Of a stretch of 64,000 nucleotides of DNA, positions 17 to 45,064 are shown in pieces. The position numbers and the translations under genes are program-made. The stretch's first letter is position 1. Every line of letters begins with the position of its first letter. The notes under the pieces were generated by a model. It was not told where the DNA came from, ran no database searches, and worked only from the letters and a program-made list of their open reading frames with translations. The stretch is from an uncultured virus (IMG/VR IMGVR_UViG_3300010299_000003) (Duplodnaviria; Heunggongvirae; Uroviricota; Caudoviricetes), in IMG/VR virus record IMGVR_UViG_3300010299_000003; one strand, given 5' to 3'.

Positions 17-2782
17 TTGAAAAAAGCTATTTTTGTAGATACAAAAAGACAAGTCGTTGAAGAATCATATTTGACAGATGATGCCATAATCACTGAAATA
101 TACAGTGCTATGGATGATATGATATTAGATGACATAGAAGATAATGATATACCACAATTAACAAATAAATTAAAAAGATTAGATAAATTAAAAAAAACTT
201 ATGAAAGTACTTTAAATAGACCACTTTCACAAAAACAAGAGAGAGATAGAAGAGCTTTAAATGGCTCAATTAAAAAATTTTCAGTTTCAATACAAAGAGC
301 AATAAAAATAAAACAAGAAGAAAATGCTAAAAAAGGTATTGCAGAAAAACTATTTCCAAAATTTGCTAAAAAAGTAGGCAAAGAGTTTTTAGAAAATTTA
401 GAATCATCTTTAACTGACGATCCTAATGATATGGTAGGGGGAATATTAGGTTTTGGAGTATCAAAATATAAAGAATATAAAGAAGAAAAAAAAGAAAAAT
501 TAGAAGAAGAGAAGGAAAAACAAAAAGAAATGAAAGACGCAGAATTTGAAGATTCCAAAAGAATGTTCACTGCCGCTGGATATGATTCTCCTTATTCTGT
601 AATAAACGCAAAAAGTAATAAAAAATCAGCCGAAAGTGAGACTGACTATGAAGATTTAGATTTCAGTTCAATGGATTCGTTGAGTTCAATGAATTCGTCA
701 TTTTCCGATTCAAGTATTTCTGGTTCAAGTAATGCTATTGTTGAAATTCTAAAACAAATATCAGATAACACAATTTTCAATGATATAATAGCACAAAGTT
801 TAGAAAAAATTGCTATGACTTCTGACTATGTTGTATATACAGAAAATATAGCAGAAAACACAGATGCAATAAAAATTGGAATTGATAGGTTATTGCGATA
901 TTCAGAAAAAGCTGATATTAGAGATACCGATTGGAGAATGGATGAATTAGAAGCACGAAGGGAAGCTAAAAAAATAGATTTTACACAAGATAAAATGACA
1001 AGCGAAGGCCCATCAGGAGAATCTGGTAGTGGTGGTGGAATTTTAAGTAGCGCATTAGGAGGTGTATTGGGTGGAGCCGCATTGAAAAAAACATTAGGTG
1101 GATTATTTAAAAAAATGTTTAATCCAAAAACTATGCTTAAAGTTTTGGGAAAAGCTGTCACTAAACTTGCGCTACCACTAACTATAATTGCATCTCTTGG
1201 TGCTGGAATAATAGATGGCTTTAAAGAATATCAAAAAACTGGTTCAATAAAAGATGCATTAGTTGCAGGAGTTTCTGGAATAATAGATTTTCTTACATTT
1301 GGTCTTTTTGATATAGAAAAAGTTAAAAAATTTATTGAGCCATTTATGGCTTTTAACGTCAAAATAATTGGAGGTTATTTTAATTTTTTGAAAAGTACTT
1401 TTACTGCAATATGGAATGCTGGAAAAAGTATGATAGATAAATTATTGAATATTGTTGATCAAATACAATTAACCGCAATAGATTGGGCAATAAGTCTACT
1501 ATCTAAAATTCCTATTGGAACTGGAGGATTAATTGACTCTCTAAAAAAACAAAAACAAGATGTTCAAAAAGGAATTGAAGCAAGACAATCTATAGTAAGT
1601 GACATAGATTCTTCGCCAGTTTTAGGAGAAGATAAAACATCCACAACATCTACTGGAACATCATCTATGACAATGCCAATGGAGTCATATTCTAAAGAAC
1701 CTCTGTCTGCAAAAGATACCAAATCTAATCTAATAAAAGATTTAGAATCTCAAGGAATAACCGACAAAGATGCTCAAGCAAATATATTAGCAAATATAAA
1801 AGCAGAATCAAACTTTAAACCTCAAAGTGAAAATTTAAATTATTCTGCTAAAACATTAATGAGATTGTTTGGGCCAGGAAGTGGTAATAAAGTTAGAGTC
1901 AAAAGCATGGCTGAAGCACAAGCTATTGTAGATCAGGGCCCAGAAGCTGTAGGAAATCTGATATATGGCGGAAGAATGGGAAATAAAGCCGACGAAGGCT
2001 TTAAATATAGAGGTAGAGGTCTTGTTCAACTAACTGGAAAAAATAACTATGAAGAAATGGGTAAAAAATTGGGGCTTGATTTAGTTAATGATCCAGATTT
2101 AGCAAATCAACCAGAAATTGCATCAAAAATTGCGGCACAATATTATGCAGATAGAAAAAATAGATTCAATTATAAAGATATATCACAAGTAGCAAAAGCT
2201 ACAGGACATGCTGGAGGTCAAGCAGAGACATTAAAAAGAGCACAATATGCACAGCAAATAAAAATGGAGATGTCATCTACTGAAAGTCAACCTCAACTAA
2301 AATTATTAAAGGGTGAAGAAGGTGTCGATTGGGTTAAAGATGTAGATGGAAATATTATAAAAGGTAAAGAAAATGTAGATTGGGTTAGAGATGAAAATGG
2401 AGATATTTTAGATATGCATTTTGATAGCGAGAGGGTTCGTGATCGCAATCCAAACAAATATAAAAAAGTAAGAGATCCTTGGAAAGGAATAATGCCAAGT
2501 GAAATTTCACCAGAAACAAGAAAAATGATGGAAGAAGAGGCCAATTTAAATAAACGTCCACCAGCAATTCAAATGGCTGCAAATCAAACTAGAGAAACTC
2601 CAAATCCATATTTAACTGTTACAAAAACTAAATCAGGAAGTGATAATAATCAACCAGTAATAATTAATAATAACAATAATAAAACAACTGCCATCCCATC
2701 TCAAACAAAAAGCTCTCCACCAGAAAGAACCGATACTGGAACTTCAAGTAGGAGAGCATCTTTTACATCGGCATTTTCATAG
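17..2782 (+). CDS. Baseplate hub/tape-measure-like tail protein with a GH19-type (lysozyme-fold) peptidoglycan hydrolase domain
   Basis: 921 aa. Coiled-coil N-terminus, Gly/hydrophobic tape-measure-like middle, then AESNF...ENLNYSA...YGGRMGN...YRGRGLVQLTGKNNY (GH19 signature), then a low-complexity NNNN C-terminus. Converges on gene 32. Confidence 0.75.
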   Translation: MKKAIFVDTKRQVVEESYLTDDAIITEIYSAMDDMILDDIEDNDIPQLTNKLKRLDKLKKTYESTLNRPLSQKQERDRRALNGSIKKFSVSIQRAIKIKQEENAKKGIAEKLFPKFAKKVGKEFLENLESSLTDDPNDMVGGILGFGVSKYKEYKEEKKEKLEEEKEKQKEMKDAEFEDSKRMFTAAGYDSPYSVINAKSNKKSAESETDYEDLDFSSMDSLSSMNSSFSDSSISGSSNAIVEILKQISDNTIFNDIIAQSLEKIAMTSDYVVYTENIAENTDAIKIGIDRLLRYSEKADIRDTDWRMDELEARREAKKIDFTQDKMTSEGPSGESGSGGGILSSALGGVLGGAALKKTLGGLFKKMFNPKTMLKVLGKAVTKLALPLTIIASLGAGIIDGFKEYQKTGSIKDALVAGVSGIIDFLTFGLFDIEKVKKFIEPFMAFNVKIIGGYFNFLKSTFTAIWNAGKSMIDKLLNIVDQIQLTAIDWAISLLSKIPIGTGGLIDSLKKQKQDVQKGIEARQSIVSDIDSSPVLGEDKTSTTSTGTSSMTMPMESYSKEPLSAKDTKSNLIKDLESQGITDKDAQANILANIKAESNFKPQSENLNYSAKTLMRLFGPGSGNKVRVKSMAEAQAIVDQGPEAVGNLIYGGRMGNKADEGFKYRGRGLVQLTGKNNYEEMGKKLGLDLVNDPDLANQPEIASKIAAQYYADRKNRFNYKDISQVAKATGHAGGQAETLKRAQYAQQIKMEMSSTESQPQLKLLKGEEGVDWVKDVDGNIIKGKENVDWVRDENGDILDMHFDSERVRDRNPNKYKKVRDPWKGIMPSEISPETRKMMEEEANLNKRPPAIQMAANQTRETPNPYLTVTKTKSGSDNNQPVIINNNNNKTTAIPSQTKSSPPERTDTGTSSRRASFTSAFS
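2309..2410 (+). repeat. Degenerate in-frame 51-bp tandem duplication (KGEEGVDWVKDVDGNII / KGKENVDWVRDENGDIL)
   Basis: Two adjacent 17-codon units seen directly. Confidence 0.85.
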
Positions 2783-6405: not shown

Positions 6406-6879
6406 TTAATTTAAATTAACATTTATTGATTCATCATTATCTTCTTTGGAATTGTTTTTAAGTTCTTTAATTTCTTTTTCATATTTACTTAAAACCTTTA
6501 CAACATTTTCCATAAAACTAACATCATCCATACTTTCCAAAACATCTTCACTTAATTTTGGTCTATCATCAATTCCGACTTGTCTCAATTCCCAAGCTAT
6601 TAGAAAAAATAAACAACAACCAGCACTAGCTAAATGACTTAATGATGTTTCTTTATCTTTATCTTGACCATGATACCAAATAGTTAGATGTCTTTGGAGA
6701 GCACCAAATGCTCTAGACCAATTCATTCCTTTTTCCCAATTCCTTTCTGAATACTTTTCTGCACCAAAAGTTAATACTTTTGCTATTTCATTTACTACAT
6801 CATAAGGCACAAGATCCATTCTAACTTTCTTTTTATCATATTTAACACCTTGATTTTTTTTACTCATCACATACCCCAA
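6406..6879 (-). CDS. dATP/dGTP diphosphohydrolase-domain protein
   Basis: GVKYDKKKVRMDLVP..VLTFGAEKYSERNWEKG..ALQRHL..SHLA pattern of this phage family. Confidence 0.85.
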   Translation of the reverse strand: MGYVMSKKNQGVKYDKKKVRMDLVPYDVVNEIAKVLTFGAEKYSERNWEKGMNWSRAFGALQRHLTIWYHGQDKDKETSLSHLASAGCCLFFLIAWELRQVGIDDRPKLSEDVLESMDDVSFMENVVKVLSKYEKEIKELKNNSKEDNDESINVNLN

Positions 6880-8730: not shown

Positions 8731-9606
8731 TTAGTTACTTTTCTTAGGGCCAATAATTGTTATTTTTATTGGCTCTTTATTTTTTATTTTCATTTTAGGT
8801 GGATGCAAAAGATTCCTTCTTAAAATAACTTCCTTAGATGCATCATAATATGGTGGCTCACATTCACTCCATATTTTTTGAAAATGACCACCACCATCAG
8901 ACCCTTTTACATGTATATTCATAAAATAATGCTGTAATTCATGTCTATAAATTTGTTTAATGTCTATATTTTCAATTAAATATACAGTTCTAGTTTCTGG
9001 TTGATATACACCAACTACAGCACCACCCATAATTGGAACAAAATTAAATCCTAATCTATCTAAACTGTGTACATCAACTGCACTGGCTTTTACTACAAAA
9101 CATCTAGGTATATTAGTTTCCATTACTGGATTTTTAGGCCATACTTTTGTATTAACACATTGTAGTGCTTTGTTATATTCTTCTTGCTCATTAATAAACA
9201 CACCGCAAGGAGCTAAATCGTTCCATGTAGCATTTGGGAATAATTCATGAATTACATGTTTATTTGTAGCAGTCGTTATTACAGATTGTCCTTTTTGATT
9301 TGTGCTTTTATTTAAAATTTTATCTACTGCAATTAATAGAGCAATTACACATACAGCTACAGTGAGTGTAGTTTGTATAGCTTTTAGAACTTTAACTATT
9401 CCAGATAATATACAAGAAGTTATGGATTTTAAAGGATTGAGTATTTTGGCAAGAATTTTAGATATTTTAGAAAGTTTATTAGATATTGAGTTTATAACTT
9501 TATCTATTTTTTTAGATATTTTTTTACAATTTTTATCTAGTTTTTTTATTTTAGTTTGTATTAGCTTTATTATCTTTTTCACAAAAATTCCTACAAAAAT
9601 AAACAC
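8731..9606 (-). CDS. Membrane-anchored putative zincin metallopeptidase
   Basis: Basic amphipathic N-terminus, TM helix, then GVY..RHELQHY..GGGH (HExxH plus distal His). True start uncertain. Confidence 0.6.
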   Translation of the reverse strand: MFIFVGIFVKKIIKLIQTKIKKLDKNCKKISKKIDKVINSISNKLSKISKILAKILNPLKSITSCILSGIVKVLKAIQTTLTVAVCVIALLIAVDKILNKSTNQKGQSVITTATNKHVIHELFPNATWNDLAPCGVFINEQEEYNKALQCVNTKVWPKNPVMETNIPRCFVVKASAVDVHSLDRLGFNFVPIMGGAVVGVYQPETRTVYLIENIDIKQIYRHELQHYFMNIHVKGSDGGGHFQKIWSECEPPYYDASKEVILRRNLLHPPKMKIKNKEPIKITIIGPKKSN

Positions 9607-9612
9607 TGTTTA

Positions 9613-9620
9613 TATTTATA
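9613..9620 (-). promoter_or_regulatory. Late promoter TATAAATA
   Basis: Exact consensus, intergenic. Confidence 0.6.
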
Positions 9621-9640
9621 GTATTTTATTTCTACCAGCA

Positions 9641-9910
9641 TTAATCCAATTCTTCTGGTTTTATTGGCACAATAGCAATTTTAGTTTTCTTTTTAGAATC
9701 TTTAAATATTTGTGGCAAAGAATCGGTTATATGCTCTGCTAAAATTTTATTAATTTTTTCAATCAATTCTTTAGTTTCTGCTTCTATTTTTTCATTAGGA
9801 TTTGAAGTATCAAAGGTTAAAATAACCTCATACACTTTCACCATCGCCCTTAGTTTTTTTTCTTCCACTTTTTTTGGCAGATTTTCGTTCTTTTTCGACA
9901 TTACTATCAA
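9641..9910 (-). CDS. Hypothetical protein
   Basis: 89-aa ORF overlapping the tail of the upstream gene. Confidence 0.6.
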   Translation of the reverse strand: MIVMSKKNENLPKKVEEKKLRAMVKVYEVILTFDTSNPNEKIEAETKELIEKINKILAEHITDSLPQIFKDSKKKTKIAIVPIKPEELD

Positions 9911-10337
9911 TAACCTCGTCTTTTATTAATCCAGGAAATGCCTCGTTTATAACTTTTCTGGTCAATCCAATATCTAATTTTTTATCCTTTGCATGTATTA
10001 AAATTTCAGATTCCTTTGAATCTAATTGTTCTAGCAATTCTATGAATAAGCTCTCTCTTTTAGATTGTTTAATCTTTGGAGATAACTCTTTTACAAAAAC
10101 ATACCAACCTCTAGAACTAGCTTTTAATGTAGTATCACCAAATCCATCGGGGTTCTTGTTCTTTTTGTAAGGTGGAGCACCTTCAGGTAGAGCAAGAGAT
10201 AAAGATTTGTCATAATTTAATCTCAAAATTCCTCTTAATGCAGAACAATCATTTTTAACTAAAATATCAATTCTTTCATTATTTGTTTTTGCTGTTTTAA
10301 CTTTATCTAAAATTTCAGCAACACTCAAAGATGACAT
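9828..10337 (-). CDS. Conserved T4-like hypothetical protein (usual rnh neighbour)
   Basis: EILDKV..ILRLNYD..LPEGAPPYK..KRESLFIELLE..AFPGLI. Confidence 0.75.
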   Translation of the reverse strand: MSSLSVAEILDKVKTAKTNNERIDILVKNDCSALRGILRLNYDKSLSLALPEGAPPYKKNKNPDGFGDTTLKASSRGWYVFVKELSPKIKQSKRESLFIELLEQLDSKESEILIHAKDKKLDIGLTRKVINEAFPGLIKDEVIDSNVEKERKSAKKSGRKKTKGDGESV

Positions 10338-10354
10338 AATATCTAACTCCCATT

Positions 10355-11242
10355 TTAAAACTCAGAAATACTCTCTAATAGATACTTCAATCTATTTTTA
10401 ACAAAATAATTCAATAAGTGTCTTTTTTGACCTTGAGGGCCTGTTTCATAACACTTTATTATTTTCTCTTGTATATTTATAGGCGTAAAATCTAAATCTA
10501 TTAATTGTTGATTTCTTTTATAATTTCTTAGAATATTTTCATCTTCAATACTGTCTAAATTTTCCAATTCAATCCAAGATTTTATCTTGTCTTTTCTTAA
10601 TGGTTTTTGTCTGGTTCCCTCAGTAACAAATACCGAATCTTGAGATAATACGTTTGGAATTCCATCTCCAGAATCACCAGTTAATATATGTTCTTTTAAA
10701 GTCTTTTTTGGATCATCACATGTTATATATTTCTTGAACATTGGTGAATATTGTCTTACGTTATTATATTTTTGTAATTGAACAAAGTCTTTATCACCAG
10801 ACAATATTAAAACCTTTTCTGGTTGAGGATCTAATGTTCCAGATGATAAATTATTTTTTTGAGAATATCTAACCATAGTTCCGATAATATCATCAGCTTC
10901 TGCACCATCAACTTGAATTACCGTATATGGAAAGAATTCTTTTATTTCATCTCTAATTTTATTCAATGTGGTAAAAATTAAATTCCAATCATATTTTGAA
11001 GCATCACGCATTTTTTTTCTGTTTGCTTTATAATATGGAAAGACATCTTTTCTCCAATACGTTCTATCATCGGTACAAAAAATAAGCTCACCATACTCAT
11101 CAGAAAACTTTTTCTTATATGATAAAATCGTAGATAGTACCATATGTCTAATCATATCCTCAGAAAGCTCTGAGGTTGGACTGGCATTAATCTGAGACAT
11201 CAAGTTTGATATTAGGGTTTGGTTAAAGTCTATAAGTATCAT
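10355..11242 (-). CDS. rnh: RNase H (T4 FEN-type 5'-3' exonuclease)
   Basis: ILIDFNQ, WRKDVFPYYKANRK, EADDIIG, SGDKDFVQL, GDSGDGIPN, RNQQLIDL. Confidence 0.96.
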   Translation of the reverse strand: MILIDFNQTLISNLMSQINASPTSELSEDMIRHMVLSTILSYKKKFSDEYGELIFCTDDRTYWRKDVFPYYKANRKKMRDASKYDWNLIFTTLNKIRDEIKEFFPYTVIQVDGAEADDIIGTMVRYSQKNNLSSGTLDPQPEKVLILSGDKDFVQLQKYNNVRQYSPMFKKYITCDDPKKTLKEHILTGDSGDGIPNVLSQDSVFVTEGTRQKPLRKDKIKSWIELENLDSIEDENILRNYKRNQQLIDLDFTPINIQEKIIKCYETGPQGQKRHLLNYFVKNRLKYLLESISEF

Positions 11243-11296
11243 AATAAAACATTATACAAAATATATTAACATAAAGCAAATTTTTTACCATTTTTA

Positions 11297-12103
11297 TCAA
11301 GCACCAACATTCCAAAATAATATGGGTTCAACTCTTTTATTATTTTCATAATAATCGATCATGGGCTTCCATGCTTTAGCATCATATTCAGGAGCAGAAG
11401 GAAATGGTGGCATTTCGGCTTGTTTCACTCTTTGATTCCATTTATATTTTGATGGATGGAATATAGCTCTTCCAATTTCTCTTTCATTCATATTATGACC
11501 CCCAGATGATACTACATGCACCTCTGCATTTGGCCATGCTAATTGTAGTGCTCGATTTAATGTTCCACTTGAGCCTATACTCCACACATGACTAGGAATT
11601 ACAGGCAAAGATCTAGCAACTTTTATAAAACATGCAAAAACAGTAGGATGCTCAAGACCTATTGGCAATAAAGCTCTAGTAGAAGGATCTTCAGCTACAT
11701 AATCTCTAGCTCTTTTTTTAGTTACAGTAAGCATACCATCTGGTATCCAATGATATTCTGCACCAAGCTCAATTCCCTTTTTTTGATATTCATGTAAATT
11801 ATTCATGTTTCTTTTTGCCATGAATATTACAGCTTTTTTATCATATCTATTGCATAAAAATGGTAAGCTAATTTGTGCATAACCTGTTGCTGGACACGAG
11901 CCATATACCCATTCTTTTATATGCTTATGTTTTTCACAATGACCTATTAAATAATCAGCACCCCTTATCTTTGTTCCTGCATCTAGAAGATCATCTCTAA
12001 CAACATATATTCCATTATGCAATTCTAAAACTGGTTTTGGGTAAGGATCATTCCAATTTTGTATTAGATTTAAATATTGATCATCCAATATCTGCTCAAT
12101 CAC
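11297..12103 (-). CDS. PLP-dependent enzyme (fold type II-like) of the type found in phage base-modification loci
   Basis: VVRDDLL..GTKIR (Schiff-base Lys), GYAQISL, SIGSSGTL phosphate loop, YDAKAW, LFWNVGA. Confidence 0.75.
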   Translation of the reverse strand: MIEQILDDQYLNLIQNWNDPYPKPVLELHNGIYVVRDDLLDAGTKIRGADYLIGHCEKHKHIKEWVYGSCPATGYAQISLPFLCNRYDKKAVIFMAKRNMNNLHEYQKKGIELGAEYHWIPDGMLTVTKKRARDYVAEDPSTRALLPIGLEHPTVFACFIKVARSLPVIPSHVWSIGSSGTLNRALQLAWPNAEVHVVSSGGHNMNEREIGRAIFHPSKYKWNQRVKQAEMPPFPSAPEYDAKAWKPMIDYYENNKRVEPILFWNVGA

Positions 12104-12105
12104 AA

Positions 12106-12363
12106 TTAATGCTTCCTTTCGCCATGTAATATTGCTTTGAATTCTTTATAAGAGTTTTCAGCCATTTCTTTTTTAAATAATTCTGGTTTATACTCATCTA
12201 TTGTATAGTAGATACCATCTTCAAATCCACGAAAATAAAAAAACTTTTCTAAATTTTCTTTTGCAATATTAGATTTTAAACTCTGATACAATTTTCCAAA
12301 AATTGCACCACATATAAAATTTATTAAGCAACAAAAAAATAGTATTAAAAAATAGCTGTCCAT
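12106..12363 (-). CDS. Small membrane protein
   Basis: N-terminal TM helix; YFRGFEDG motif. Confidence 0.65.
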   Translation of the reverse strand: MDSYFLILFFCCLINFICGAIFGKLYQSLKSNIAKENLEKFFYFRGFEDGIYYTIDEYKPELFKKEMAENSYKEFKAILHGERKH

Positions 12364-12365
12364 AA

Positions 12366-12476
12366 TTATTTAAATCTAATTTTTTTCATTTTTCTTATAG
12401 CATCATTAAAACCTAAATTATAGCCGACAAAGATGCCCAACAAAAAAACAACAAGATATAAAATAATATTAATCAC
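12366..12476 (-). CDS. Small membrane peptide (36 aa; not in ORF track)
   Basis: GTG start, MINIILYLVVFLLGIFVGYNLGFNDAIRKMKKIRFK*. Fills the gap exactly. Confidence 0.55.
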   Translation of the reverse strand: MINIILYLVVFLLGIFVGYNLGFNDAIRKMKKIRFK

Positions 12477-12735
12477 GTTTTAAGTTTGTCATTTCATCAG
12501 TTAATTTCATTGAGAGTTCAGTAATAGTCATATCTTTTATTGCTTTACCAGATATTGCACATTTTTTATCCAATTTTTTAACACACTGTAGTATTACAAT
12601 AATTTCCATTTGTCTTTTTGACAAAGCTATTGCATTTGCAAGTCTTACACCAGCCATAAAACAAAATATGGCACTTAACATACATATGATAATTAATTCT
12701 AAATTTAGGTTTTCCATTTTAATAATTTTCTCCAA
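12469..12735 (-). CDS. Small membrane protein
   Basis: TM helix LIIICMLSAIFCFMAGV. Confidence 0.6.
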   Translation of the reverse strand: MEKIIKMENLNLELIIICMLSAIFCFMAGVRLANAIALSKRQMEIIVILQCVKKLDKKCAISGKAIKDMTITELSMKLTDEMTNLKRD

Positions 12736-13022
12736 AAACTTTGATTACTTTTTACATTATCTTTCATCCAATTTAATATTTTTATAGAAGAATTTATCCT
12801 ATCTATTTGTTGAACAAAATATATTTGTTCATCATGCGTTAATGGTTTTTTTAAATTTTCCATATACATTATATCAAATTTTGATAACTCAAAAGATTGA
12901 ATCAAAAATTCAATATTTGTAACTAAATTATTTTTTCGATAATCATATTTTTTAACTTCCTCAGTATTGTTTGTCTTAAAGGTATTTACTAGTTTTTTTA
13001 TAGATACCAATTTCATAATCAA
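12705..13022 (-). CDS. Hypothetical protein
   Basis: Coupled ORF in operon. Confidence 0.6.
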   Translation of the reverse strand: MIMKLVSIKKLVNTFKTNNTEEVKKYDYRKNNLVTNIEFLIQSFELSKFDIMYMENLKKPLTHDEQIYFVQQIDRINSSIKILNWMKDNVKSNQSFWRKLLKWKT

Positions 13023-14380
13023 CTATCTTTTAATCTTTTGATATTTTTTAGATCATCACCAGCTAAACTTGATACTATGCTATTTTGATAAAAATCTTTT
13101 AATCTACGCATGATAAAATTATTTTCTGGTTCTTGAGATAATGTATCTATAATATCAATAAGTTCGTTATAAGTTCGATGAAAACTTTCACTAAATATAC
13201 CCTCTTGATATTCAATTTCAAAATTATACTTATCCAACTTTAATTTTCCACCATATCGATAAATTGCATAGTCTTTTAGAGTCGATTCTATTTTATCTAT
13301 ATCTAAATTATTGCATAAAAATCTCAAGTATAATTGACTTGCAAATTTACATTTTCTATCTTTTATTAAAAATAAATCATTTCGCCATATGGCATCATAT
13401 AATGCAGATATATCGCCAATAGGCATCATGTAAATGAACTGTTCAATATCACAATTCTTGGGTGGAAAGAAATTTTCTAATGTGATATGAGATAACTCTT
13501 GTTTTGCAACTGAAGCTCTAGATTTTAATGTATCATCATTTAAATATTCTTTTACAAAAAACGACGATGTGGTTTTATTATACCAAGATACAGATTTTTT
13601 CTCCAACCCTTCTTCAAATTTTTTTAAGTTTATCCACAATGCTTGATTTTTATTCTGTTCTAAAACGGCATAATAACAATACTCATCAGAAACCTTATTG
13701 CCATTTTCGTCAATAAATGGAAATACCTTAACTACATCAAATCTATTCTTTTTGACTTCATACGAATGATAATTTCTAATATCTAAATTATAATTATCTG
13801 ATAAATGTTTTGCCAATTTTATTGTTAAAAGAACATCAGCTAAAGATTCATGCTCTTGAGTTTCATCTATATTAAGTAAACCTAATGATTTTAAAACAGA
13901 TTCAAGTTTATATACAGTTCTATTATTTTCATTTTTTTCCAACAGATTTACAAAATCTTCATTATCACAGCATAATCTTTTTACTGCATGTAAAACATCA
14001 CCATAGTTTAAACAACCACCAAAATATGGATTAAGTCCATTTCTAATCATGCTAGTTCTTAAATATGGAACATCAAATATATTTGAATTATATCCAATTA
14101 ATTTAACTTGATCTTTTTCAATAACACTTTGTAGATACTTTTGTATTTTAGCTACGGCTATGTGTTCAGGATCTGTAGACTCTTCATTATGTTTTATAAC
14201 ATCAAGTTTAGTTGCAAGTATTGCATATGGATCTGGAAGTTGAGTTCTAGAAATTTTTACAGTTCCAGTTAATTTCGACTGAATAGACCAATCATCATTT
14301 ACCTCAACAAAGGCATAATTTAATATTTGACCGACAGTATTTAAGTCGGTAGTTTCTAAATCAAAAAATATACTTTTCAT
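13019..14380 (-). CDS. Exonuclease I (SbcB)-like DEDDh 3'-5' exonuclease
   Basis: FFDLETT, QIL, PDPYA, GYNSNIFDVPYLR, HESLADV; 453 aa, similar in length to ExoI. Confidence 0.75.
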   Translation of the reverse strand: MKSIFFDLETTDLNTVGQILNYAFVEVNDDWSIQSKLTGTVKISRTQLPDPYAILATKLDVIKHNEESTDPEHIAVAKIQKYLQSVIEKDQVKLIGYNSNIFDVPYLRTSMIRNGLNPYFGGCLNYGDVLHAVKRLCCDNEDFVNLLEKNENNRTVYKLESVLKSLGLLNIDETQEHESLADVLLTIKLAKHLSDNYNLDIRNYHSYEVKKNRFDVVKVFPFIDENGNKVSDEYCYYAVLEQNKNQALWINLKKFEEGLEKKSVSWYNKTTSSFFVKEYLNDDTLKSRASVAKQELSHITLENFFPPKNCDIEQFIYMMPIGDISALYDAIWRNDLFLIKDRKCKFASQLYLRFLCNNLDIDKIESTLKDYAIYRYGGKLKLDKYNFEIEYQEGIFSESFHRTYNELIDIIDTLSQEPENNFIMRRLKDFYQNSIVSSLAGDDLKNIKRLKDS

Positions 14381-14381
14381 A

Positions 14382-15488
14382 TTATAATACTCTTAGTAAG
14401 ATAGTATCTTTATTAATTCTACCTGTCAATTTTTTTTCTTTTGTTCTGATAGAAGGCATTAATTTTCTTAAAGAGACCTTACCATCATTTAAAACTTTAT
14501 CCAGAATTTTTTCAGGTTGTCTTAATTTTTTACACACAGATTCTGACACATCAAAATTCATTATTGTACATCCCTTAACAGAAAAGCCATGATTATTATT
14601 ACACACATAAACACCCAAAATTCTATATTTAACATTATACACCCATAATTGACTAGCACCAACAATTTTTGTAGGTGGAATACTTTTTAATGACTCATGT
14701 TGTTTTAAAAATTGAAGTTTTTCAACTTGTTTTAATGGAGATTTTGGTTTTTTCTTTCTAGGTGTTTTATTGTTTAAAGAAATTTGTTTAGTTACATCAA
14801 ACCATCGATCACACGCATCTATTATATTTTCTACAAATTTTATAAATTTATTTAATTGATTTTTATCTAAAAAATTATATGCTTCAGATAATTGATCGCA
14901 CTTGTTTGATTTTGCTAATTTTAATTCAGATAAAAGAGTGTTTTGATAATATTCTTTTATATTTTTAGTTTGCTGATGTTTAACATTATTCTTTTTTAAC
15001 CACTCATAAAAATCAATTTTTTTCTTAAAATTTGATTCTATTAAAGAATCAATAAAAAAAGCAATTTCACTTAAATACTCATTTAACTGATTTTCTATAT
15101 TTTCTTGTATTGTTGGCTTTACAATTTTTTTGTCTGTATCATCACTTTGGACTTCAACATTAGTTGATGAATTTAGTATTTTGTTTTTTTCATTAGTAAT
15201 ATAATGGTCGTATGAATTTGGAAACTTTTCCGCATTCAATAATTTAATTCTACACAACCACCCTATTGTTGTTGAAATATTGTTTGCATTTTTTACAATA
15301 CTATCTAAAGTATCTTTTTTCTCGCCACTCTTTTTAAGAAATTCTATAAAATACTTTTTAGCATCTGAAGAATTTTTATTATAGTTGTACCAATTTAATA
15401 TATTAATTAATTGGGTTTTATCGTCCTCAAAATCAACTTTCCATAATGGTTCTTGTGTCGATACTGAATGTTTGGCTTTTCTTCTCAT
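14382..15488 (-). CDS. Conserved T4-like hypothetical protein
   Basis: LNWYNY; C-terminal IVGASQLWVYNVKYR..KKLRQPE..GRINKDTILLRV. Confidence 0.75.
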   Translation of the reverse strand: MRRKAKHSVSTQEPLWKVDFEDDKTQLINILNWYNYNKNSSDAKKYFIEFLKKSGEKKDTLDSIVKNANNISTTIGWLCRIKLLNAEKFPNSYDHYITNEKNKILNSSTNVEVQSDDTDKKIVKPTIQENIENQLNEYLSEIAFFIDSLIESNFKKKIDFYEWLKKNNVKHQQTKNIKEYYQNTLLSELKLAKSNKCDQLSEAYNFLDKNQLNKFIKFVENIIDACDRWFDVTKQISLNNKTPRKKKPKSPLKQVEKLQFLKQHESLKSIPPTKIVGASQLWVYNVKYRILGVYVCNNNHGFSVKGCTIMNFDVSESVCKKLRQPEKILDKVLNDGKVSLRKLMPSIRTKEKKLTGRINKDTILLRVL

Positions 15489-15494
15489 AATTCT

Positions 15495-15505
15495 ATTATA
15501 TCACA
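15495..15505 (-). promoter_or_regulatory. Extended -10 early promoter motif TGTGATATAAT
   Basis: Recurrent motif, here ending 6 bp upstream of the start codon. Confidence 0.6.
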
Positions 15506-15666
15506 TTACAGACAAAAATAAAACGATTTTATTGTTCAATAATGTCAACAAGTTAAACTATATAAAATAATTTAAATTGACACTTTTGGTATATGGGTAT
15601 GATTGTACTATTTTATTTGATTTAAGTCAATATATGGTCTATTATTATTTTTTGGATTTAAAAAAT

Positions 15667-16206
15667 TTACAATATAGAATGACCATATTTTGCTATGTAG
15701 TAAGAATCAATAATATCTGACATTGGAGATTCACCTTCCTTACAGTGAATTATGCTAGAAATGTCAAACTCAGTTTGTTTTACAAAACTTTCATACATTA
15801 AAAGTTTATTGGCATTTCCCTTTCCAGTTGCAAACTTTTTTATGGTAGTTGGAGCAACTATACTTAAATTGTCTATTAACTTATTTTTATATAACTTATG
15901 CTTTAGTATTCCAGTATTTTCTGCAATATTAAAAATAACACCTTTTGCAGAAAATGCATACCCTTCTATGAATATTGATGACTTTTTTGGAATAACTGAT
16001 AAAGCCCAATCAGATATGTTATTAAATCTTTCTTCTTGAGATAAAAAATCTTTATGCAAACTTCCAAAAAAAATTTTATCTGTAAAATGACACTTTTTTT
16101 TATTAGTTAAAAAATGAAATTTGCAATTACTAAAAGACCAATCTTTTCCTTCATGAACACATATTGAAGGACTTGACATAGAATAGTCTATTCCAACTAT
16201 ATTCAT
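15667..16206 (-). CDS. RuvC-like Holliday junction resolvase
   Basis: GIDYS, FIEGYAF, PTTIKKFATGKGNANK, DIIDSYYIA. Confidence 0.85.
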   Translation of the reverse strand: MNIVGIDYSMSSPSICVHEGKDWSFSNCKFHFLTNKKKCHFTDKIFFGSLHKDFLSQEERFNNISDWALSVIPKKSSIFIEGYAFSAKGVIFNIAENTGILKHKLYKNKLIDNLSIVAPTTIKKFATGKGNANKLLMYESFVKQTEFDISSIIHCKEGESPMSDIIDSYYIAKYGHSIL

Positions 16207-24150: not shown

Positions 24151-24705
24151 TTATGTAAATCCTAATCTTTTTAGTTTATTAATGACATCAGAAGCAGATG
24201 TAACTCTTATTGCAATACCACCAGATGATTCAAATTCTTTACAATTTTTTATATAATCATCTATAAGTATATTTGATGATCCAGATTTATCTTGTGCATA
24301 TAATTTCTTTTGATCTCTTCTAACTAAGTGAATATTTGATAGATTTTTTAATCCAATCTTTTTATTTAACCAATTCATCTTACCCTTTTTACAGGTTTTA
24401 GCTTCAGATCCACATGCGCTCAATATGCTGGGTTTATATTTTCTAACAAATTTCCATATTTTTATTCCATCAGCAGTGAATTGTAGATTTTCCCAAAAAT
24501 TTTTGGTATTGTTTAAAATTTTCCATTTTTCTTGATCTGCATTTGGAACTTTATCCCAATACTTATCGTTCCAATTTGGCTTTCCTGCTAGATTTAATGC
24601 TGTATTAGCACCAGACATCCAATCTACTAATGTCTCGTCCATATCTAAGTAAATATGAGGGAGGTTACTAACGTCCTCCTTCAAATATTCCTTAAACTTT
24701 TTCAT
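24151..24705 (-). CDS. HAD-family 5'(3')-deoxyribonucleotidase (NT5C-like) with capsid-targeting-like peptide
   Basis: YLDMDETLVD, FWENL, ILSA, GKMNW, ILIDDY; N-terminus MKKFKEYLKE. Confidence 0.85.
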   Translation of the reverse strand: MKKFKEYLKEDVSNLPHIYLDMDETLVDWMSGANTALNLAGKPNWNDKYWDKVPNADQEKWKILNNTKNFWENLQFTADGIKIWKFVRKYKPSILSACGSEAKTCKKGKMNWLNKKIGLKNLSNIHLVRRDQKKLYAQDKSGSSNILIDDYIKNCKEFESSGGIAIRVTSASDVINKLKRLGFT

Positions 24706-27394: not shown

Positions 27395-27601
27395 TTAGTC
27401 TGTTGACTTTTTTATCAGCTTTTCTTTTTCTTTTTGTCTAACTTCATTTTGTTTATTTTCAAAATCTTGCTCTTTTGCCCTTTCTAATTCACGAGAATGC
27501 TTTATTGATAATTGTTCTTTTTCTCTTTCTTGTTTTTCTTTTACTCTATCTGTTACCGTAGGAACATCAGCTTCTTGTAGTATATCATTTAATGTTTTCA
27601 T
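27395..27601 (-). CDS. Nested in-frame ORF (68 aa) with its own SD
   Basis: AAAAAGGAGAGTAAT-ATG, MKTLNDILQEAD..., charged coiled coil. Confidence 0.55.
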   Translation of the reverse strand: MKTLNDILQEADVPTVTDRVKEKQEREKEQLSIKHSRELERAKEQDFENKQNEVRQKEKEKLIKKSTD

Positions 27602-28642
27602 ATTACTCTCCTTTTTATTAGAAATTATTTTATCATTTATAGTTTTTTTATACGTTTTTGGATAAGATTGTGCATATAATAGCAATTCAGATATTGGAAT
27701 ATCAACTGATACGCAATCTACTTTTATATTCTCATCTAAACTTTTTAATGCATATAGTTGATGATGACCATCTAATATGTGATTATCAGAAGATACTATA
27801 AAAGGTTTTATAATACCAATGTTATTAGATATTTTTTCAGATTTCTGTTTAACTTTTTCTAAATTAATTTCATTTTGAGTAGGCAATAAAAAATTTACCA
27901 ATATTTTTTTTCTTGTTATTTTTACGTTATTATTTTTTAAATATTCTAAAAAATTTTGTATATCTTGCTCTTTTATTTGAGGCATTTCACTTCTAGGTAT
28001 ATTTAATGTATTTGTTAATTTTTGTATAGATTCAATCATCTCTGTAATTTTAAGAGATTTTCTAATTTTGTCAAACAATTCTTTTTGATATTTTGTGCTT
28101 AATCCAGATAATGTACCCTTTTTAAAAGAATTAAAGTTATTGGATTTTGCAAAATCTCTCATTTTAGATGCGCTCATTCCAGATACTCCTCCAGAATCAG
28201 GATCTCTATTACCTGCACTAATAACATTAAAAGATTGTAAATTCAAACTTTTGGATAAATCTGGATGATTAACATACTTGCCAATAGTTTTCTTAAATTC
28301 CCGAACTCTATCTTGACCAACAACCATAACTATATCGGTATATCCCATATTTTCTAAATGTTTTATGGCATCAAATGGTGTTTTTATAGAAGAATCATTA
28401 ATAATATTTTTTGAAATTTTTGGCACACCCAAAGAAATATATTTTTCTTTATCTTTTGACGATAAAGGATTTTTTCTACTATCTTGAGTTTGTGATAAAA
28501 ATAAAAATGGAGTTGAATTAGTGCTATTTGCAGTTGATAATAATTTATTAATTAACTTTTCGTGACCAACAGTAGGGGGATTCATTCTACCGAATGACAT
28601 TACAGCTTTTTTAGTTTTTACTATTTCATTGAGAAGTTTCAT
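27395..28642 (-). CDS. HIGH-family nucleotidyltransferase (cytidyltransferase-like) fused to a ParB/Srx-like domain
   Basis: FGRMNPPTVGH, KNPL, VVGQDR, SASKMR; then PRSEMPQI, PTQNEI, VSSDNHILDGHH. Confidence 0.85.
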   Translation of the reverse strand: MKLLNEIVKTKKAVMSFGRMNPPTVGHEKLINKLLSTANSTNSTPFLFLSQTQDSRKNPLSSKDKEKYISLGVPKISKNIINDSSIKTPFDAIKHLENMGYTDIVMVVGQDRVREFKKTIGKYVNHPDLSKSLNLQSFNVISAGNRDPDSGGVSGMSASKMRDFAKSNNFNSFKKGTLSGLSTKYQKELFDKIRKSLKITEMIESIQKLTNTLNIPRSEMPQIKEQDIQNFLEYLKNNNVKITRKKILVNFLLPTQNEINLEKVKQKSEKISNNIGIIKPFIVSSDNHILDGHHQLYALKSLDENIKVDCVSVDIPISELLLYAQSYPKTYKKTINDKIISNKKESNMKTLNDILQEADVPTVTDRVKEKQEREKEQLSIKHSRELERAKEQDFENKQNEVRQKEKEKLIKKSTD

Positions 28643-28644
28643 AA

Positions 28645-28887
28645 TTAATTTGCATGGGCAACTTTAACAGCTTTTACATCTGATGTTGCAACAACTAAAT
28701 GACTTGCTTGTTTCTGCAAATGTATAATTTCACCTTCAGCAAGAGTTACTGAAGATACCGTAGTTGCACCATCTTTAACTTCAACTAGCACATCAACACC
28801 AGAATTATAGAGTCTAACTACAGTAGCTTGTTCCACATCTGTAGCAACTCCTAAATCAGTTTCTTCTGCTAATAATTTTACTATCAT
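28645..28887 (-). CDS. Small beta-rich putative virion protein
   Basis: AGGAG SD; ATVVRLYN..TLAEGE..K..VKVA. Confidence 0.7.
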   Translation of the reverse strand: MIVKLLAEETDLGVATDVEQATVVRLYNSGVDVLVEVKDGATTVSSVTLAEGEIIHLQKQASHLVVATSDVKAVKVAHAN

Positions 28888-28901
28888 AATTTTCTCCTAT
28901 A

Positions 28902-29300: not shown

Positions 29301-29301
29301 A

Positions 29302-34509: not shown

Positions 34510-34631
34510 AGTATATCATCAAAATTTCTACCAATATTTTTAGATGCACAAAGCAATCTTTCTTCAGCTAATTTAATATACTATGGATTTAGTTCTATTA
34601 GAACATCAGTAAATATATTTTTCTTAGCCAT
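34506..34631 (-). pseudogene. Chimeric remnant: uvsX N-terminus joined to the C-terminus of a beta-class methyltransferase
   Basis: Reads MAKKNIFTDVL-IELNP*YIKLAEERLLCASKNIGRNFDDIL*; internal TAG at 34581-34583. Confidence 0.7.
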
Positions 34632-34642
34632 AGTTTCTCCTA
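34598..34642. repeat. 45-bp perfect direct repeat, copy 2
   Basis: Identical to 33337-33381. Confidence 0.95.
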
Positions 34643-36483: not shown

Positions 36484-36493
36484 ATGAAGTATA

Positions 36494-45047: not shown

Positions 45048-45064
45048 TACCAATACCCTTTAAA

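What the first reader, a model, noticed from the sequence alone, without database searches (positions are those of the whole stretch)
11297..12103. PLP-dependent enzyme suggests DNA base hypermodification
Seen: a compact PLP enzyme directly upstream of rnh. Known: PLP-dependent decarboxylases act on amino-acid-modified DNA bases in the thymidine hypermodification pathways of phages ViI and M6. Seen: no hmdU kinase or amino acid:DNA transferase is evident in this window, and the phage has a dUTPase and dCMP deaminase. Inference: the substrate may come from another route, for example transfer of the aminocarboxypropyl group of SAM by the atypical enzyme at 47619..49277, followed by decarboxylation.
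Basis: partly seen in the sequence, partly recalled or inferred. Interest (0 to 1): 0.7.

Follow-up and report, generated by a model that had tools for sequence, protein, structure and literature searches.

The report
Phage PLP enzyme paired with methylase
This marine T4-like phage gene encodes a small vitamin-B6 enzyme related to one proven to trim amino acids attached to phage DNA, and it works as a pair with an odd methylase-like gene 36 kb away, so the phage probably decorates its DNA with a chemical group nobody has described yet.

Summary
The ORF is real: 11297..12103, minus strand, 268 aa, just upstream of rnh. It is a confident fold-type-II PLP enzyme (AF2 pLDDT 95.9) with an invariant Lys45. 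It is not a cellular ACC deaminase or threonine dehydratase. It belongs to phrog_7093, whose prototype M6 gp52 is an experimentally shown PLP decarboxylase acting on amino-acid adducts in DNA (hhalign 98.9%).

None of the thymidine-hypermodification partners (hmdU kinase, amino-acid:DNA transferase, radical-SAM enzyme) was detected in the window or in relatives' contigs.

- The two are fused in single proteins elsewhere.
- An MTase-like gene lies in the flank of 61 of 78 viral loci and 32 of 40 bacterial, mostly prophage-like, loci.
- In 11 related T4-like phages the order is gp46-PLP-MTase.
- In this lineage the pair is split by about 36 kb but retained.

The chemistry is untested.

This scan noted the same module on three other genomes. 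I found no paper describing it. Cultured Erythrobacter and Microcystis phages carry it, so it can be tested.

The parts
11297..12103 (-). PLP-dependent enzyme, 268 aa; member of phrog_7093 (M6 gp52-type DNA-adduct decarboxylase family), fold type II
   Evidence: ORF. phrog_7093 E 2.8e-37. AF2 pLDDT 95.9. Foldseek top hit 1j0a, E 3e-12. hhalign to M6 gp52 98.9%.
11969..11971 (-). Codon of Lys45 (in AGTKIR), the predicted PLP Schiff-base lysine
   Evidence: Translation. Invariant in 57 of 57 sequences. Aligns with M6 gp52 K36, which PMC8989533 names as the likely aldimine lysine.
11561..11572 (-). SSGT (residues 178-181), predicted PLP-phosphate-binding glycine loop; G180 invariant
   Evidence: The profile aligns this loop to the GTGGT loop of O-acetylserine sulfhydrylase.
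11369..11410 (-). PPFPSAPEYDAKAW, C-terminal family signature shared with M6 gp52 (PFPCNPFYDLKAW)
   Evidence: Used as the search motif.
12112..12118 (-). AAGGAAG, Shine-Dalgarno-like stretch about 8-10 nt before the GTG start (tentative)
   Evidence: Read directly from the sequence.
47619..49277 (-). Partner: 552-aa methyltransferase-like protein. Unknown N-terminal half plus a class I SAM-MTase fold C-terminal half. No Pfam hit even at E<=1.
   Evidence: phrog_498 'DNA methyltransferase' E 8e-11 and phrog_12517 E 5e-12. No Pfam hit. End-to-end homology (E 1e-55) to the N-terminal 459 aa of fused protein P0125, whose C-terminus is 49% identical to the target. AF2 pLDDT 84, with Foldseek hits all class I MTases.
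48294..48320 (-). Motif I, DPSAGWGGR (SAM-binding loop) of the partner
   Evidence: Translation. D320, S322 and G324-R328 are invariant in 25 of 25 homologues.
48027..48044 (-). Motif IV, TSPPYF (amino-methyltransferase catalytic motif) of the partner
   Evidence: Translation. T412-F417 are invariant in 25 of 25 homologues. Aligns with SCPPY of Erythrobacter phage R6L gp1.

Best explanation
The gene encodes a PLP-dependent tailoring enzyme of the M6 gp52 / ViI gp226 family. These enzymes decarboxylate amino-acid groups that hang on bases of polymeric DNA. Here it does not belong to a thymidine (5-hmdU) pathway. It is one half of a conserved two-enzyme module whose other half is the methyltransferase-like protein at 47619..49277.

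Proposed working (inferred):
1. After replication the methylase-like enzyme flips out a base with an exocyclic amine. The invariant SPPY motif points to adenine N6 or cytosine N4.
2. It uses SAM to attach a group that carries a free alpha-amino acid. The only such group SAM itself can give is 3-amino-3-carboxypropyl.
3. The PLP enzyme forms an aldimine with that alpha-amine through Lys45 and removes CO2.
4. This leaves a cationic 3-aminopropyl group in the major groove that would shield phage DNA from host nucleases.

Shown here: family membership, PLP-site conservation, and the genetic link of the two genes.
Inferred: that the substrate is DNA, the target base, the group transferred, and decarboxylation as the reaction.

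My odds: about 0.7 that the two genes form a nucleic-acid base hypermodification module (the confidence given for this explanation), and about 0.25-0.3 for the specific acp-to-aminopropyl chemistry.
For: Family:
- Target matches phrog_7093 at E 2.8e-37 over residues 29-268. M6 gp52 matches phrog_7093 at E 2.2e-159 over its full length.
- hhalign of the 57-sequence family alignment against gp52 gives prob 98.9%, E 1.3e-17, 224 columns, with K45 on K36 and a shared PFPxxxxYDxKAW...FWNxG tail.
- tblastn of gp52 against the window gives E 2.7e-8.
- gp52 and ViI gp226 were shown biochemically to decarboxylate C-alpha-glycinyl-T and O-seryl-T in DNA (PMC8989533, passages read).

PLP site:
- K45 and G180 are invariant in 57 of 57.
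- Fold type II model, TMq 0.78 to 1j0a.

Partner link:
- Fused proteins P0123-P0127 (1057-1191 aa) carry MTase-like + Asp/Arg-hydroxylase + this PLP domain.
- 12 of 22 fused proteins tested by tblastn hit both window genes and nothing else in the window.
- 15 of 34 long family representatives carry PF01555.
- In Erythrobacter phage R6L gp1 the PLP domain is inserted between MTase motif I and motif IV.
- An MTase-like ORF lies in the flank of 61 of 78 viral loci, within 300 bp in 50, and of 32 of 40 bacterial-genome loci.
- In 11 of 13 loci examined the order is gp46-PLP-MTase, the slot where the window keeps its MTase-like gene.
- The two closest relatives with long contigs keep both genes about 37 kb apart, as in the window.
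- On the PLP tree the window nests among MTase-adjacent PLPs, and partner type clusters (0 of 500 shuffles as low; quick tree).

Not a thymidine pathway:
- No M6 gp51, gp53, gp54, gp55 or gp58 homologue in the window.
- In the viral loci searched the only such hit was one TS-like (gp58) match, in L056.
- No gp51 or gp54 homologue in G001-G004.
Against: - No experiment. The substrate, target base and reaction type are inferred from homology at about 25% identity to gp52, which sits on a very long branch in the tree.
- Pfam PALP is under its cut-off.
- The best structural matches are deaminases and desulfhydrases that act on free amino acids.
- The usual substrate-carboxylate 'asparagine loop' is replaced: TSGNT of OASS aligns to PAxGYAQ. 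The pocket therefore differs from known enzymes in ways I cannot interpret.
- In the window the two genes are 35.5 kb apart and need not still act together.
- 17 of 78 viral loci show no MTase-like gene in the flank. A 14-row PLP clade sits beside a SLOG/LOG-like gene and DNA polymerase instead. The PLP enzyme can therefore serve other partners.
- Two fused proteins add a PCIF1-type (mRNA cap adenine) methylase domain, so RNA is not excluded as substrate.
- The phage carries a SAM-lyase-family gene at 44472..45053, which sits oddly with a SAM-consuming pathway.
- Only 64 kb of the genome is visible. Other pathway genes, such as an amino-acid ligase or a glycosyltransferase, may lie outside it.
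Confidence: 0.7

Rival explanations
1. Same module and same product, but reverse order. The PLP enzyme first acts on SAM or another small molecule to make an altered donor, for example decarboxylated SAM. The methylase-fold enzyme then transfers the aminopropyl group to the base, as spermidine-synthase-type enzymes do to amines.
For: - Fusion of the two domains in one polypeptide, and insertion of the PLP domain inside the MTase, would suit channelling of a cofactor.
- The amino-acid 'asparagine loop' is atypical, consistent with a larger substrate such as SAM.
- Recalled, not tested: aminopropyltransferases have a class I MTase fold, and CmoA/CmoB set a precedent for an altered SAM donor.
Against: The only characterised family members (M6 gp52, ViI gp226) act on adducts already on DNA (PMC8989533). 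Known SAM decarboxylases are, from recall, pyruvoyl rather than PLP enzymes.
Confidence: 0.12
2. The methylase-like protein is an ordinary m6A/m4C methyltransferase. The PLP protein then does something other than decarboxylating an acp group: it tailors an adduct installed by genes outside the window, adds an amino acid by beta-replacement, or serves as a non-catalytic DNA-recognition domain.
For: - Motifs I and IV are those of ordinary amino-methyltransferases and are invariant.
- In R6L gp1 the PLP domain occupies the position between motifs I and IV where target-recognition domains sit in some MTase classes (the class layout is recalled).
- Richer cassettes add a 2OG oxygenase and a YunG-like protein, which could oxidise a methyl group for further chemistry.
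- Other PLP clades sit beside glycosyltransferase or SLOG genes.
Against: - Lys45 and the phosphate loop are invariant, which argues for catalysis.
- Many loci and two-domain fusions contain only MTase-like + PLP.
- This lineage shows no oxygenase or YunG-like gene in the window or in G001/G002, so the pair seems sufficient.
- A decarboxylase-family enzyme needs an amino-acid adduct that plain methylation cannot give.
Confidence: 0.15
3. The module modifies RNA (tRNA, rRNA or mRNA) rather than DNA.
For: - Fusions with a PCIF1-type domain in P0128 and P0130, one on an 865-kb contig.
- Foldseek hits of the partner include tRNA amino-methyltransferases such as Trm11.
- All known acp modifications are on RNA (recalled).
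Against: - Fusion to ParB N-terminal domains.
- Placement in ParB-methylase-terminase loci of phages and prophages. PMC4738411 (passages) predicts that such loci modify phage DNA at packaging.
- Homology to DNA-acting gp52.
- Placement among replication and recombination genes in T4-like phages.
Confidence: 0.07
4. An auxiliary metabolic enzyme acting on free amino acids (ACC deaminase, D-cysteine desulfhydrase or threonine/serine dehydratase type), unrelated to nucleic acids.
For: Top structural matches are such enzymes. PHROG and GenBank labels read 'threonine dehydratase'.
Against: - No NCBIfam match at E<=0.01, and Pfam PALP is under its cut-off.
- Recurrent fusion and adjacency to DNA-methylase-like, ParB and terminase genes.
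- The 'threonine dehydratase' label is carried by M6 gp52 itself, which is a DNA-adduct decarboxylase.
Confidence: 0.04

Closest known systems
PLP-dependent decarboxylases of thymidine hypermodification: Pseudomonas phage M6 gp52 and Salmonella phage ViI gp226 (Lee et al. 2021, PMC8989533)
   Same: Same PHROG, phrog_7093. Same size (268 vs 278 aa). Same fold-type-II template, 1j0a. Aligned Schiff-base lysine and shared C-terminal PFPxxxxYDxKAW...FWNxG signature.
   Different: Only about 25% identical, and gp52 is a very long branch. None of gp52's partners was found here: no 5-hmdU DNA kinase, no amino-acid:DNA transferase, no radical-SAM isomerase and no TS-like hydroxymethylase. The partner here is an amino-methyltransferase-like protein, so the modified base is probably A or C rather than T.
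ParB-methylase-terminase (ParB-Tls) loci of phages and prophages (Iyer, Zhang, Aravind 2016, PMC4738411)
   Same: One large branch of the family (Erythrobacter phage R6L and ZS04, Microcystis phage Mae-JY30, 32 of 78 viral loci and 29 of 40 bacterial loci) sits in exactly such loci, next to or inside the ParB-fused N6/N4 methylase. It is often a few kb from terminase and portal genes.
   Different: The passages I read do not mention a PLP domain; 'PLP' and 'pyridoxal' each occur 0 times in the text. The window's own partner lacks ParB and has a different, unknown 290-aa N-terminal half.
Cellular fold-type-II PLP enzymes: ACC deaminase homologue PH0054 (1j0a), D-cysteine desulfhydrase (4d8t), threonine deaminase
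   Same: Best structural matches: E 3e-12 to 2e-10, TMq 0.72-0.78. The lysine and the glycine loop are in place.
   Different: 13-17% identity. About 50-60 residues shorter. No NCBIfam hit. The Asn-loop is replaced. The genomic context is DNA modification, not metabolism.
SAM-dependent aminocarboxypropyl and aminopropyl transferases (Tyw2, Tsr3, TapT; spermidine synthase); analogy recalled from knowledge, not tested
   Same: They show that SAM-binding enzymes, some with the methyltransferase fold, can transfer the acp or aminopropyl part of SAM or dcSAM to a nitrogen or carbon of a base or amine.
   Different: No sequence relation was tested or claimed. All known acp targets are RNA or protein. 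None is coupled to a PLP decarboxylase.

Membership tests
phrog_7093 / M6 gp52-type PLP decarboxylases acting on DNA adducts | Significant full-length match to the family profile that contains the characterised member | tested here: met
   Target E 2.8e-37, residues 29-268 on profile positions 15-279 of 279. M6 gp52 E 2.2e-159. hhalign 98.9%.
phrog_7093 / M6 gp52-type PLP decarboxylases acting on DNA adducts | Schiff-base lysine equivalent to gp52 K36 | tested here: met
   K45 aligns to K36 and is invariant in 57 of 57. K36 is named in PMC8989533.
phrog_7093 / M6 gp52-type PLP decarboxylases acting on DNA adducts | Gene neighbourhood of thymidine hypermodification (5-hmdU kinase, aGPT-Pplase2/AADT, dUMP hydroxymethylase) | tested here: not met
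   No homologue in the window (best E 0.14). One TS-like (gp58) match (L056) among the viral loci searched. No gp51 or gp54 homologue in G001-G004. This lowers the claim 'thymidine pathway member', not the claim 'works like gp52'.
phrog_7093 / M6 gp52-type PLP decarboxylases acting on DNA adducts | Decarboxylation of an amino-acid adduct on polymeric DNA | not testable with these tools
   Needs enzyme assay or LC-MS.
Pfam PF00291 PALP (fold-type-II PLP enzymes) | Score at or above the gathering cut-off (35 bits) | tested here: not met
   18.9 bits, E 0.001. Relatives P0122 (46.3 bits) and P0121 (40.6 bits) pass.
Pfam PF00291 PALP (fold-type-II PLP enzymes) | Tryptophan-synthase-beta-like fold with an N-terminal lysine and a Gly-rich phosphate loop | tested here: met
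   Model pLDDT 95.9. At least 500 PDB matches at E<=0.001; every listed match (top 50 ranks) is a fold-type-II PLP enzyme. Loop alignment.
Pfam PF00291 PALP (fold-type-II PLP enzymes) | Substrate-carboxylate 'asparagine loop' (S/T-x-G-N) | tested here: not met
   TSGNT of O-acetylserine sulfhydrylase aligns to PAyGYAQ of the family profile. The window has CPATGYAQ. The name and role of the loop are recalled.
ACC deaminase / D-cysteine desulfhydrase (cellular) | Match to curated NCBIfam models of these enzymes | tested here: not met
   0 NCBIfam families at E<=0.01. Similarity is at fold level only.
N6/N4 amino-methyltransferases (partner gene 47619..49277) | SAM-binding motif I and catalytic (D/N/S)PPY motif IV on a class I MTase fold | tested here: met
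   DPSAGWGGR and TSPPYF, invariant in 25 of 25. Class I MTase Foldseek hits. phrog_498 E 8e-11.
N6/N4 amino-methyltransferases (partner gene 47619..49277) | Pfam PF01555 match | tested here: not met
   No Pfam hit even at E<=1. Homologues reach only E 1e-6 to 5e-5 near or under the cut-off.
N6/N4 amino-methyltransferases (partner gene 47619..49277) | Transfers a methyl group (rather than another part of SAM) | not testable with these tools
   Needs product analysis (SAH versus MTA release, adduct mass).

The most novel reading that the evidence does not exclude
A two-enzyme module, widespread in ocean T4-like phages, siphophages and prophages, writes a new kind of DNA base. The methylase-fold enzyme transfers the 3-amino-3-carboxypropyl group of SAM onto N6 of adenine or N4 of cytosine. 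The gp52-like PLP enzyme then decarboxylates it to a 3-aminopropyl group. In richer cassettes a 2OG oxygenase and a YunG-like protein elaborate it further. This would be the first acp- or aminopropyl-modified DNA and the first hypermodification built on a purine or cytosine exocyclic amine by a methylase homologue.
Probability: 0.25. Interest if true: 0.9.

Novelty: new variant of a known kind. Interest (0 to 1): 0.68.

Why it matters
Known phage hypermodification pathways that use this PLP enzyme family all start from 5-hydroxymethyl-uracil. Here the same tailoring enzyme is wired to a methylase-like installer in hundreds of sequence clusters: 919 representatives at 50% identity. Carriers include abundant marine T4-like phages related to pelagiphage HTVC008M, as well as prophages of Alpha- and Betaproteobacteria.

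If the module makes a new base, several things follow:
- It would widen the chemistry known for DNA.
- It would explain a recurrent 'DNA modification methylase' mis-annotation.
- It would bear on phage resistance to restriction and CRISPR, and on sequencing and base-calling of marine viromes.
- It could give enzymes for site-specific installation of primary amines on DNA.

It is directly testable because three cultured phages carry the module.

Tried and rejected
- Complex prediction of the two window proteins, each with its alignment: verdict 'no answer', score 0.00, controls not run. This says nothing either way.
- The fetch from genomes for the window's own genome: none is held, so the rest of the phage genome could not be searched.
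- megablast of 9000..16000 against cultured phages: no match.
- phmmer of the single protein against PDB sequences: only chance hits, E 0.7-0.9. The profile search was needed.
- The search for related loci with the 57-sequence alignment: failed because no stretch was conserved enough. I used the back-translated C-terminal motif instead. This biases the loci towards members that keep PPFPxxxxYDAKAW exactly. For example, M6-type and ViI-type genes are not sampled.
- The search for related loci with the single protein: gave only 5 close loci.
- Search of the window for the extra cassette genes (Asp/Arg-hydroxylase-like, YunG-like, DUF3102, ParB) by tblastn with 22 fused proteins and Pfam scans of ORFs of at least 90 aa: none found. 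PF05118 and PF24585 were also absent from G001 and G002.
- Foldseek of the partner's model: only generic class I methyltransferases, and nothing informative for its N-terminal 290 residues.
- treekit careful tree: did not finish in 300 s, so only the quick tree (SH-aLRT) is reported. Rows with PLP matches shorter than 200 aa were left out.
- Idea rejected: that fold type II excludes decarboxylation. The proven decarboxylase ViI gp226 was modelled on the same fold.
- Idea rejected: that the SAM-lyase gene travels with the cassette. It was not among window genes recurring within 4 kb of PLP in other loci.
- Literature searches for a description of the MTase-PLP module: none found in the library searched.
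Full report
**1. What is there**

The window is part of a T4-like phage with about 24-36% G+C. It carries the following genes:
- gp32, gp59, gp41-like helicase, UvsX, UvsW and UvsY
- gp44/62/45, gp46/47 and gp55
- gp23, gp20 and the prohead protease
- a class II ribonucleotide reductase, PhoH and CobS

Its major capsid protein is 57-60% identical to those of Pelagibacter phage HTVC008M and Methylophilales phage Melnitz.

The finding's coordinates match one ORF exactly: 11297..12103, minus strand, 268 aa, GTG start.
- It starts 2 nt after the stop of an 85-aa ORF and sits behind an AAGGAAG stretch.
- It ends 54 nt before the RNase H / 5'-3' exonuclease gene at 10355..11242.

**2. Is it a PLP enzyme?**

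Pfam alone is weak: PALP E 0.001, 18.9 bits against a 35-bit cut-off. No NCBIfam model matches, and phmmer against PDB sequences finds nothing. Three other lines are strong:
- The protein has 919 relatives at E<=0.001 in the 90%-cluster database.
- It also has 919 representatives at 50% identity.
- A 57-sequence alignment (A1) has four invariant columns: G43, K45, G180 and W264.

The AlphaFold2 model built on that alignment is very confident (pLDDT 95.9, pTM 0.92). All its listed PDB matches are fold-type-II PLP enzymes, led by the ACC deaminase homologue 1j0a (E 3e-12, TMq 0.78), D-cysteine desulfhydrase and threonine deaminases.

A profile search of PDB sequences gives two residue-level alignments:
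- The SSGT loop (178-181) aligns to the GTGGT phosphate loop of O-acetylserine sulfhydrylase.
- The GGTK stretch falls on the GAHK lysine region of tryptophan synthase beta. HMMER offsets it by an insert, so I read this as positional equivalence, not proof.

The usual TSGNT 'asparagine loop' is replaced by PAxGYAQ.

**3. Which family?**

The best profile match is phrog_7093, labelled 'threonine dehydratase' (E 2.8e-37). I fetched Pseudomonas phage M6. Its gp52 carries the same label in GenBank.
- gp52 is the full-length prototype of phrog_7093 (E 2.2e-159).
- hhalign of A1 against gp52 gives 98.9% probability, E 1.3e-17, over 224 columns.
- Lys45 aligns with gp52 Lys36, and both share the C-terminal signature PFPxxxxYDxKAW...FWNxG.
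- tblastn of gp52 against the window hits only this gene at significance (E 2.7e-8).

Lee et al. 2021 (PMC8989533; I read the passages returned) report the following:
- Purified M6 gp52 and ViI gp226 are PLP proteins.
- They decarboxylate C-alpha-glycinyl-thymidine and O-seryl-thymidine in DNA.
- K36 is the likely aldimine lysine.
- ViI gp226 was modelled on 1j0a.

So the ACC-deaminase-like fold does not speak against a DNA-adduct decarboxylase.

**4. Not a thymidine pathway**

M6's amino-acid:DNA transferase (gp51), radical-SAM isomerase (gp53), 5-hmdU kinase (gp54), gp55 and TS-like gp58 have no homologue in the window (best E 0.14). Among the viral loci searched, the only hit was one TS-like match, in L056. 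gp51 and gp54 also have no match in four long related contigs. As those outputs note, an empty answer in fragments is weak evidence.

**5. The partner**

*Cultured phages.* tblastn against cultured phages finds the target in only three records: Microcystis phage Mae-JY30 and Erythrobacter phages R6L and ZS04. In all three the match lies under a gene annotated 'DNA modification methylase'.
- In R6L, gp1 (807 aa translated) is a ParB-type N-terminus followed by a methylase.
- Its motif I (DPFAGGS) and motif IV (SCPPY) are separated by the PLP domain at residues 368-623.
- In Mae-JY30 the PLP gene directly follows ParB/methylase genes and lies 1.7 kb before the terminase.

*Fused proteins.* A search for longer relatives found eight proteins.
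- Five, of 1057-1191 aa, combine an MTase-like N-terminus, an Asp/Arg beta-hydroxylase (2OG oxygenase) domain and this PLP domain. One is from Nitrosomonas nitrosa.
- Two combine an MTase-like segment, the PLP domain and a PCIF1-type methylase domain.

*The decisive comparison.* The window's 552-aa protein at 47619..49277 aligns end to end (residues 29-551, E 1e-55) with residues 1-459 of the Nitrosomonas protein P0125. P0125's residues 900-1148 are 49% identical to the target.

Of 22 fused proteins run by tblastn against the window, 12 hit both genes and 10 hit only the PLP gene. Nothing else in the window was hit.

*Architectures among long representatives.* I scanned the 34 long (>=349 aa) representatives from the exhaustive search:

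| Partner domain | Count |
|---|---|
| PF01555 N6_N4 methylase | 15 |
| YunG-like (only one above Pfam's cut-off) | 9 |
| Asp/Arg-hydroxylase | 2 |
| ParB_N | 2 |
| DUF3102 | 2 |
| No recognisable partner domain | 7 |

**6. Neighbourhoods**

I scanned IMG/VR with the back-translated motif PPFPxxxxYDAKAW. I then BLASTed their ORFs.

| Feature | Viral loci |
|---|---|
| Loci with flanks | 80 |
| With a PLP ORF | 78 |
| MTase-like ORF in the flank | 61 |
| ...of the window's type | 29 |
| ...of the R6L/ParB type only | 32 |
| MTase-like ORF within 300 bp | 50 |
| Asp/Arg-hydroxylase-like gene | 11 |
| YunG-like gene | 3 |
| No MTase-like gene | 17 |

Full cassettes read hydroxylase - YunG-like - PLP - MTase, for example in L024, L032 and L076 (Pfam check).

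The same motif in one genome per bacterial species gave 42 stretches:
- 40 have a PLP ORF.
- 32 have an MTase-like gene.
- 9 have a Mae-JY30-like terminase and portal within 8 kb.

These are mostly prophage ParB-methylase-terminase loci, of the kind described in PMC4738411. The passages of that paper returned do not mention PLP; the term occurs 0 times.

All these loci were selected by an exact motif, so the proportions are not an unbiased census.

**7. Synteny explains the 36-kb separation**

I examined 13 loci gene by gene. In 11, all T4-like marine phages, the order is:

gp23 ... UvsW - gp55 - gp47 - gp46 - (hydroxylase) - PLP - MTase-like - then either peptidase-CobS or phrog_11903-rnh - gp45 - gp44

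A gp46 homologue lies within 4 kb of PLP in 22 of 78 loci.

The window keeps gp55 - gp47 - gp46 - [ClpP-like 49284..49922] - MTase-like - peptidase - SAM-lyase - CobS - gp45 - gp44. The PLP gene now sits between the phrog_11903/exonuclease genes and rnh, 35.5 kb away.

The two closest relatives with long contigs are G001 (87.6 kb) and G002 (53.2 kb). Their PLP is 82-85% identical to the target. Both hold an MTase-like homologue, 57-59% identical, about 37 kb from the PLP gene. The pair was therefore split in this lineage, yet both genes were retained.

Neither PF05118 nor PF24585 is found in G001 or G002. This lineage therefore seems to carry the minimal two-gene form.

In a quick maximum-likelihood tree (83 rows; the careful search did not finish):
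- The window's PLP groups with L003 and L005 (SH-aLRT 96).
- It lies inside a 17-row group that is otherwise almost all MTase-adjacent (SH-aLRT 91).
- Partner type is strongly clustered on the tree (0 of 500 shuffles as low). Relatedness alone can produce this.

**8. The partner protein itself**

- It has no Pfam hit even at E<=1.
- It matches phrog_498 'DNA methyltransferase' (E 8e-11) and phrog_12517.
- In a 25-sequence alignment, motif I (DPSxGWGGR) and motif IV (TSPPYF) are invariant.
- Its AF2 model (pLDDT 84.1) matches only generic class I SAM methyltransferases over the C-terminal half. These include Trm11 and M.BseCI. The N-terminal ~290 residues remain unexplained.
- From recall, (S/D/N)PPY is the catalytic motif of methylases that act on exocyclic amines: N6-adenine, N4-cytosine and N2-guanine.

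**9. Mechanism**

The characterised relatives need a free alpha-amino acid hanging on the base. In this lineage, and in the many two-domain fusions and two-gene loci, only a SAM-binding methylase homologue is available to install it.

SAM can itself donate an amino-acid-bearing group, 3-amino-3-carboxypropyl. From recall, Tyw2, Tsr3 and TapT do this on RNA. Decarboxylation would leave 3-aminopropyl. I hold it at about 0.25-0.3.

The rivals are:
- The reverse order (PLP enzyme makes an altered SAM donor first).
- Plain methylation plus other chemistry.
- An RNA target.
- Free-amino-acid metabolism.

Each is listed with its evidence in the rival explanations. The oxygenase and YunG-like genes of richer cassettes would elaborate the adduct. 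From recall, TYW5 hydroxylates the acp chain of wybutosine.

The general claim is that this is a nucleic-acid base hypermodification module made of these two genes. I hold it at about 0.7.

**10. Novelty**

I searched the full-text library. I also read passages of PMC8989533, PMC4738411, PMC13229309, PMC9599517 and PMC13458397. No description of a methylase-PLP module turned up.

The library omits most subscription journals, and I saw no supplements. Supplements of PMC8989533 and PMC13229309 list metavirome gene clusters and might include such contigs.

Within this scan the same module was noted on three other genomes. Those notes agree with what I tested independently here.

I class it as a new variant of a known kind: a known DNA-tailoring enzyme family coupled to a different, uncharacterised installer.

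Noticed in passing
window 35380..38439 (-): The family B DNA polymerase is split into two ORFs: the N-terminal exo+pol part at 36979..38439 and the C-terminal pol part at 35380..36483. A dCMP deaminase gene (36494..36979) sits between them. A related contig (L011) also shows a split polymerase next to its PLP gene.
   Followed up: no
window 49284..49922 (-): A ClpP-like protease gene (PF00574, E 5e-27) sits between gp46 and the methylase-like gene. This is the slot the PLP gene fills in 11 related phages.
   Followed up: partly
window 44472..45053 (-): A SAM-lyase-family gene (PF23780, E 4e-17) lies 2.5 kb from the SAM-binding methylase-like gene. It is not among genes recurring near the cassette in other loci. 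How a SAM-degrading enzyme coexists with three methylase-type genes is unexplained.
   Followed up: partly
window 33427..35383 (-): Two further, ordinary DNA methylases sit side by side: a D12-class Dam-like enzyme (33427..34509) and an N6_N4 methylase (34640..35383).
   Followed up: no
window 6406..6879 (-): A dATP/dGTP diphosphohydrolase N-terminal domain (PF18909, E 1.7e-33), the MazZ-like type known from 2-aminoadenine phages (role recalled). No PurZ-like gene was seen in the window.
   Followed up: no
window 24151..24705 and 27395..30513 (-): A 5'-3' deoxyribonucleotidase-like gene (phrog_2643), a cytidyltransferase-like gene (phrog_3041/395) and a DUF6267 gene (PF19782, E 3e-117). These are further nucleotide-related genes of unknown role.
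   Followed up: no
window 17..2782 (+): The only long plus-strand gene in the window: a 921-aa protein with a class I chitinase / lysozyme-like segment at residues 659-710 (PF00182, E 9e-8).
   Followed up: no
L011 8603..10180 (and 10 similar loci): A separate PLP clade (about 298-301 aa, 14 rows in the tree) has no methylase-like neighbour. It sits directly after a SLOG/LOG-like 'possible lysine decarboxylase' gene (PF03641, E 2e-31) and before a split DNA polymerase. Two long contigs of this type lack the methylase-like gene.
   Followed up: partly
L020 3883..7052: The PLP gene closest to the window's lineage outside it lies next to a glycosyltransferase-like gene and an NAD-dependent sugar epimerase/dehydratase, beside gp23. 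The contig is only 14 kb, so a methylase-like gene may lie outside it.
   Followed up: no
L032 6782..12539: A full cassette with two tandem methylase-like paralogues: hydroxylase - YunG-like - PLP - MTase - MTase, on a 135-kb viral contig.
   Followed up: no
P0128 / P0130 (1176-1180 aa): Proteins combining a methylase-like segment, the PLP domain and a PCIF1-type cap-adenine methylase domain. One lies on an 865-kb contig, possibly eukaryotic or giant-virus.
   Followed up: no
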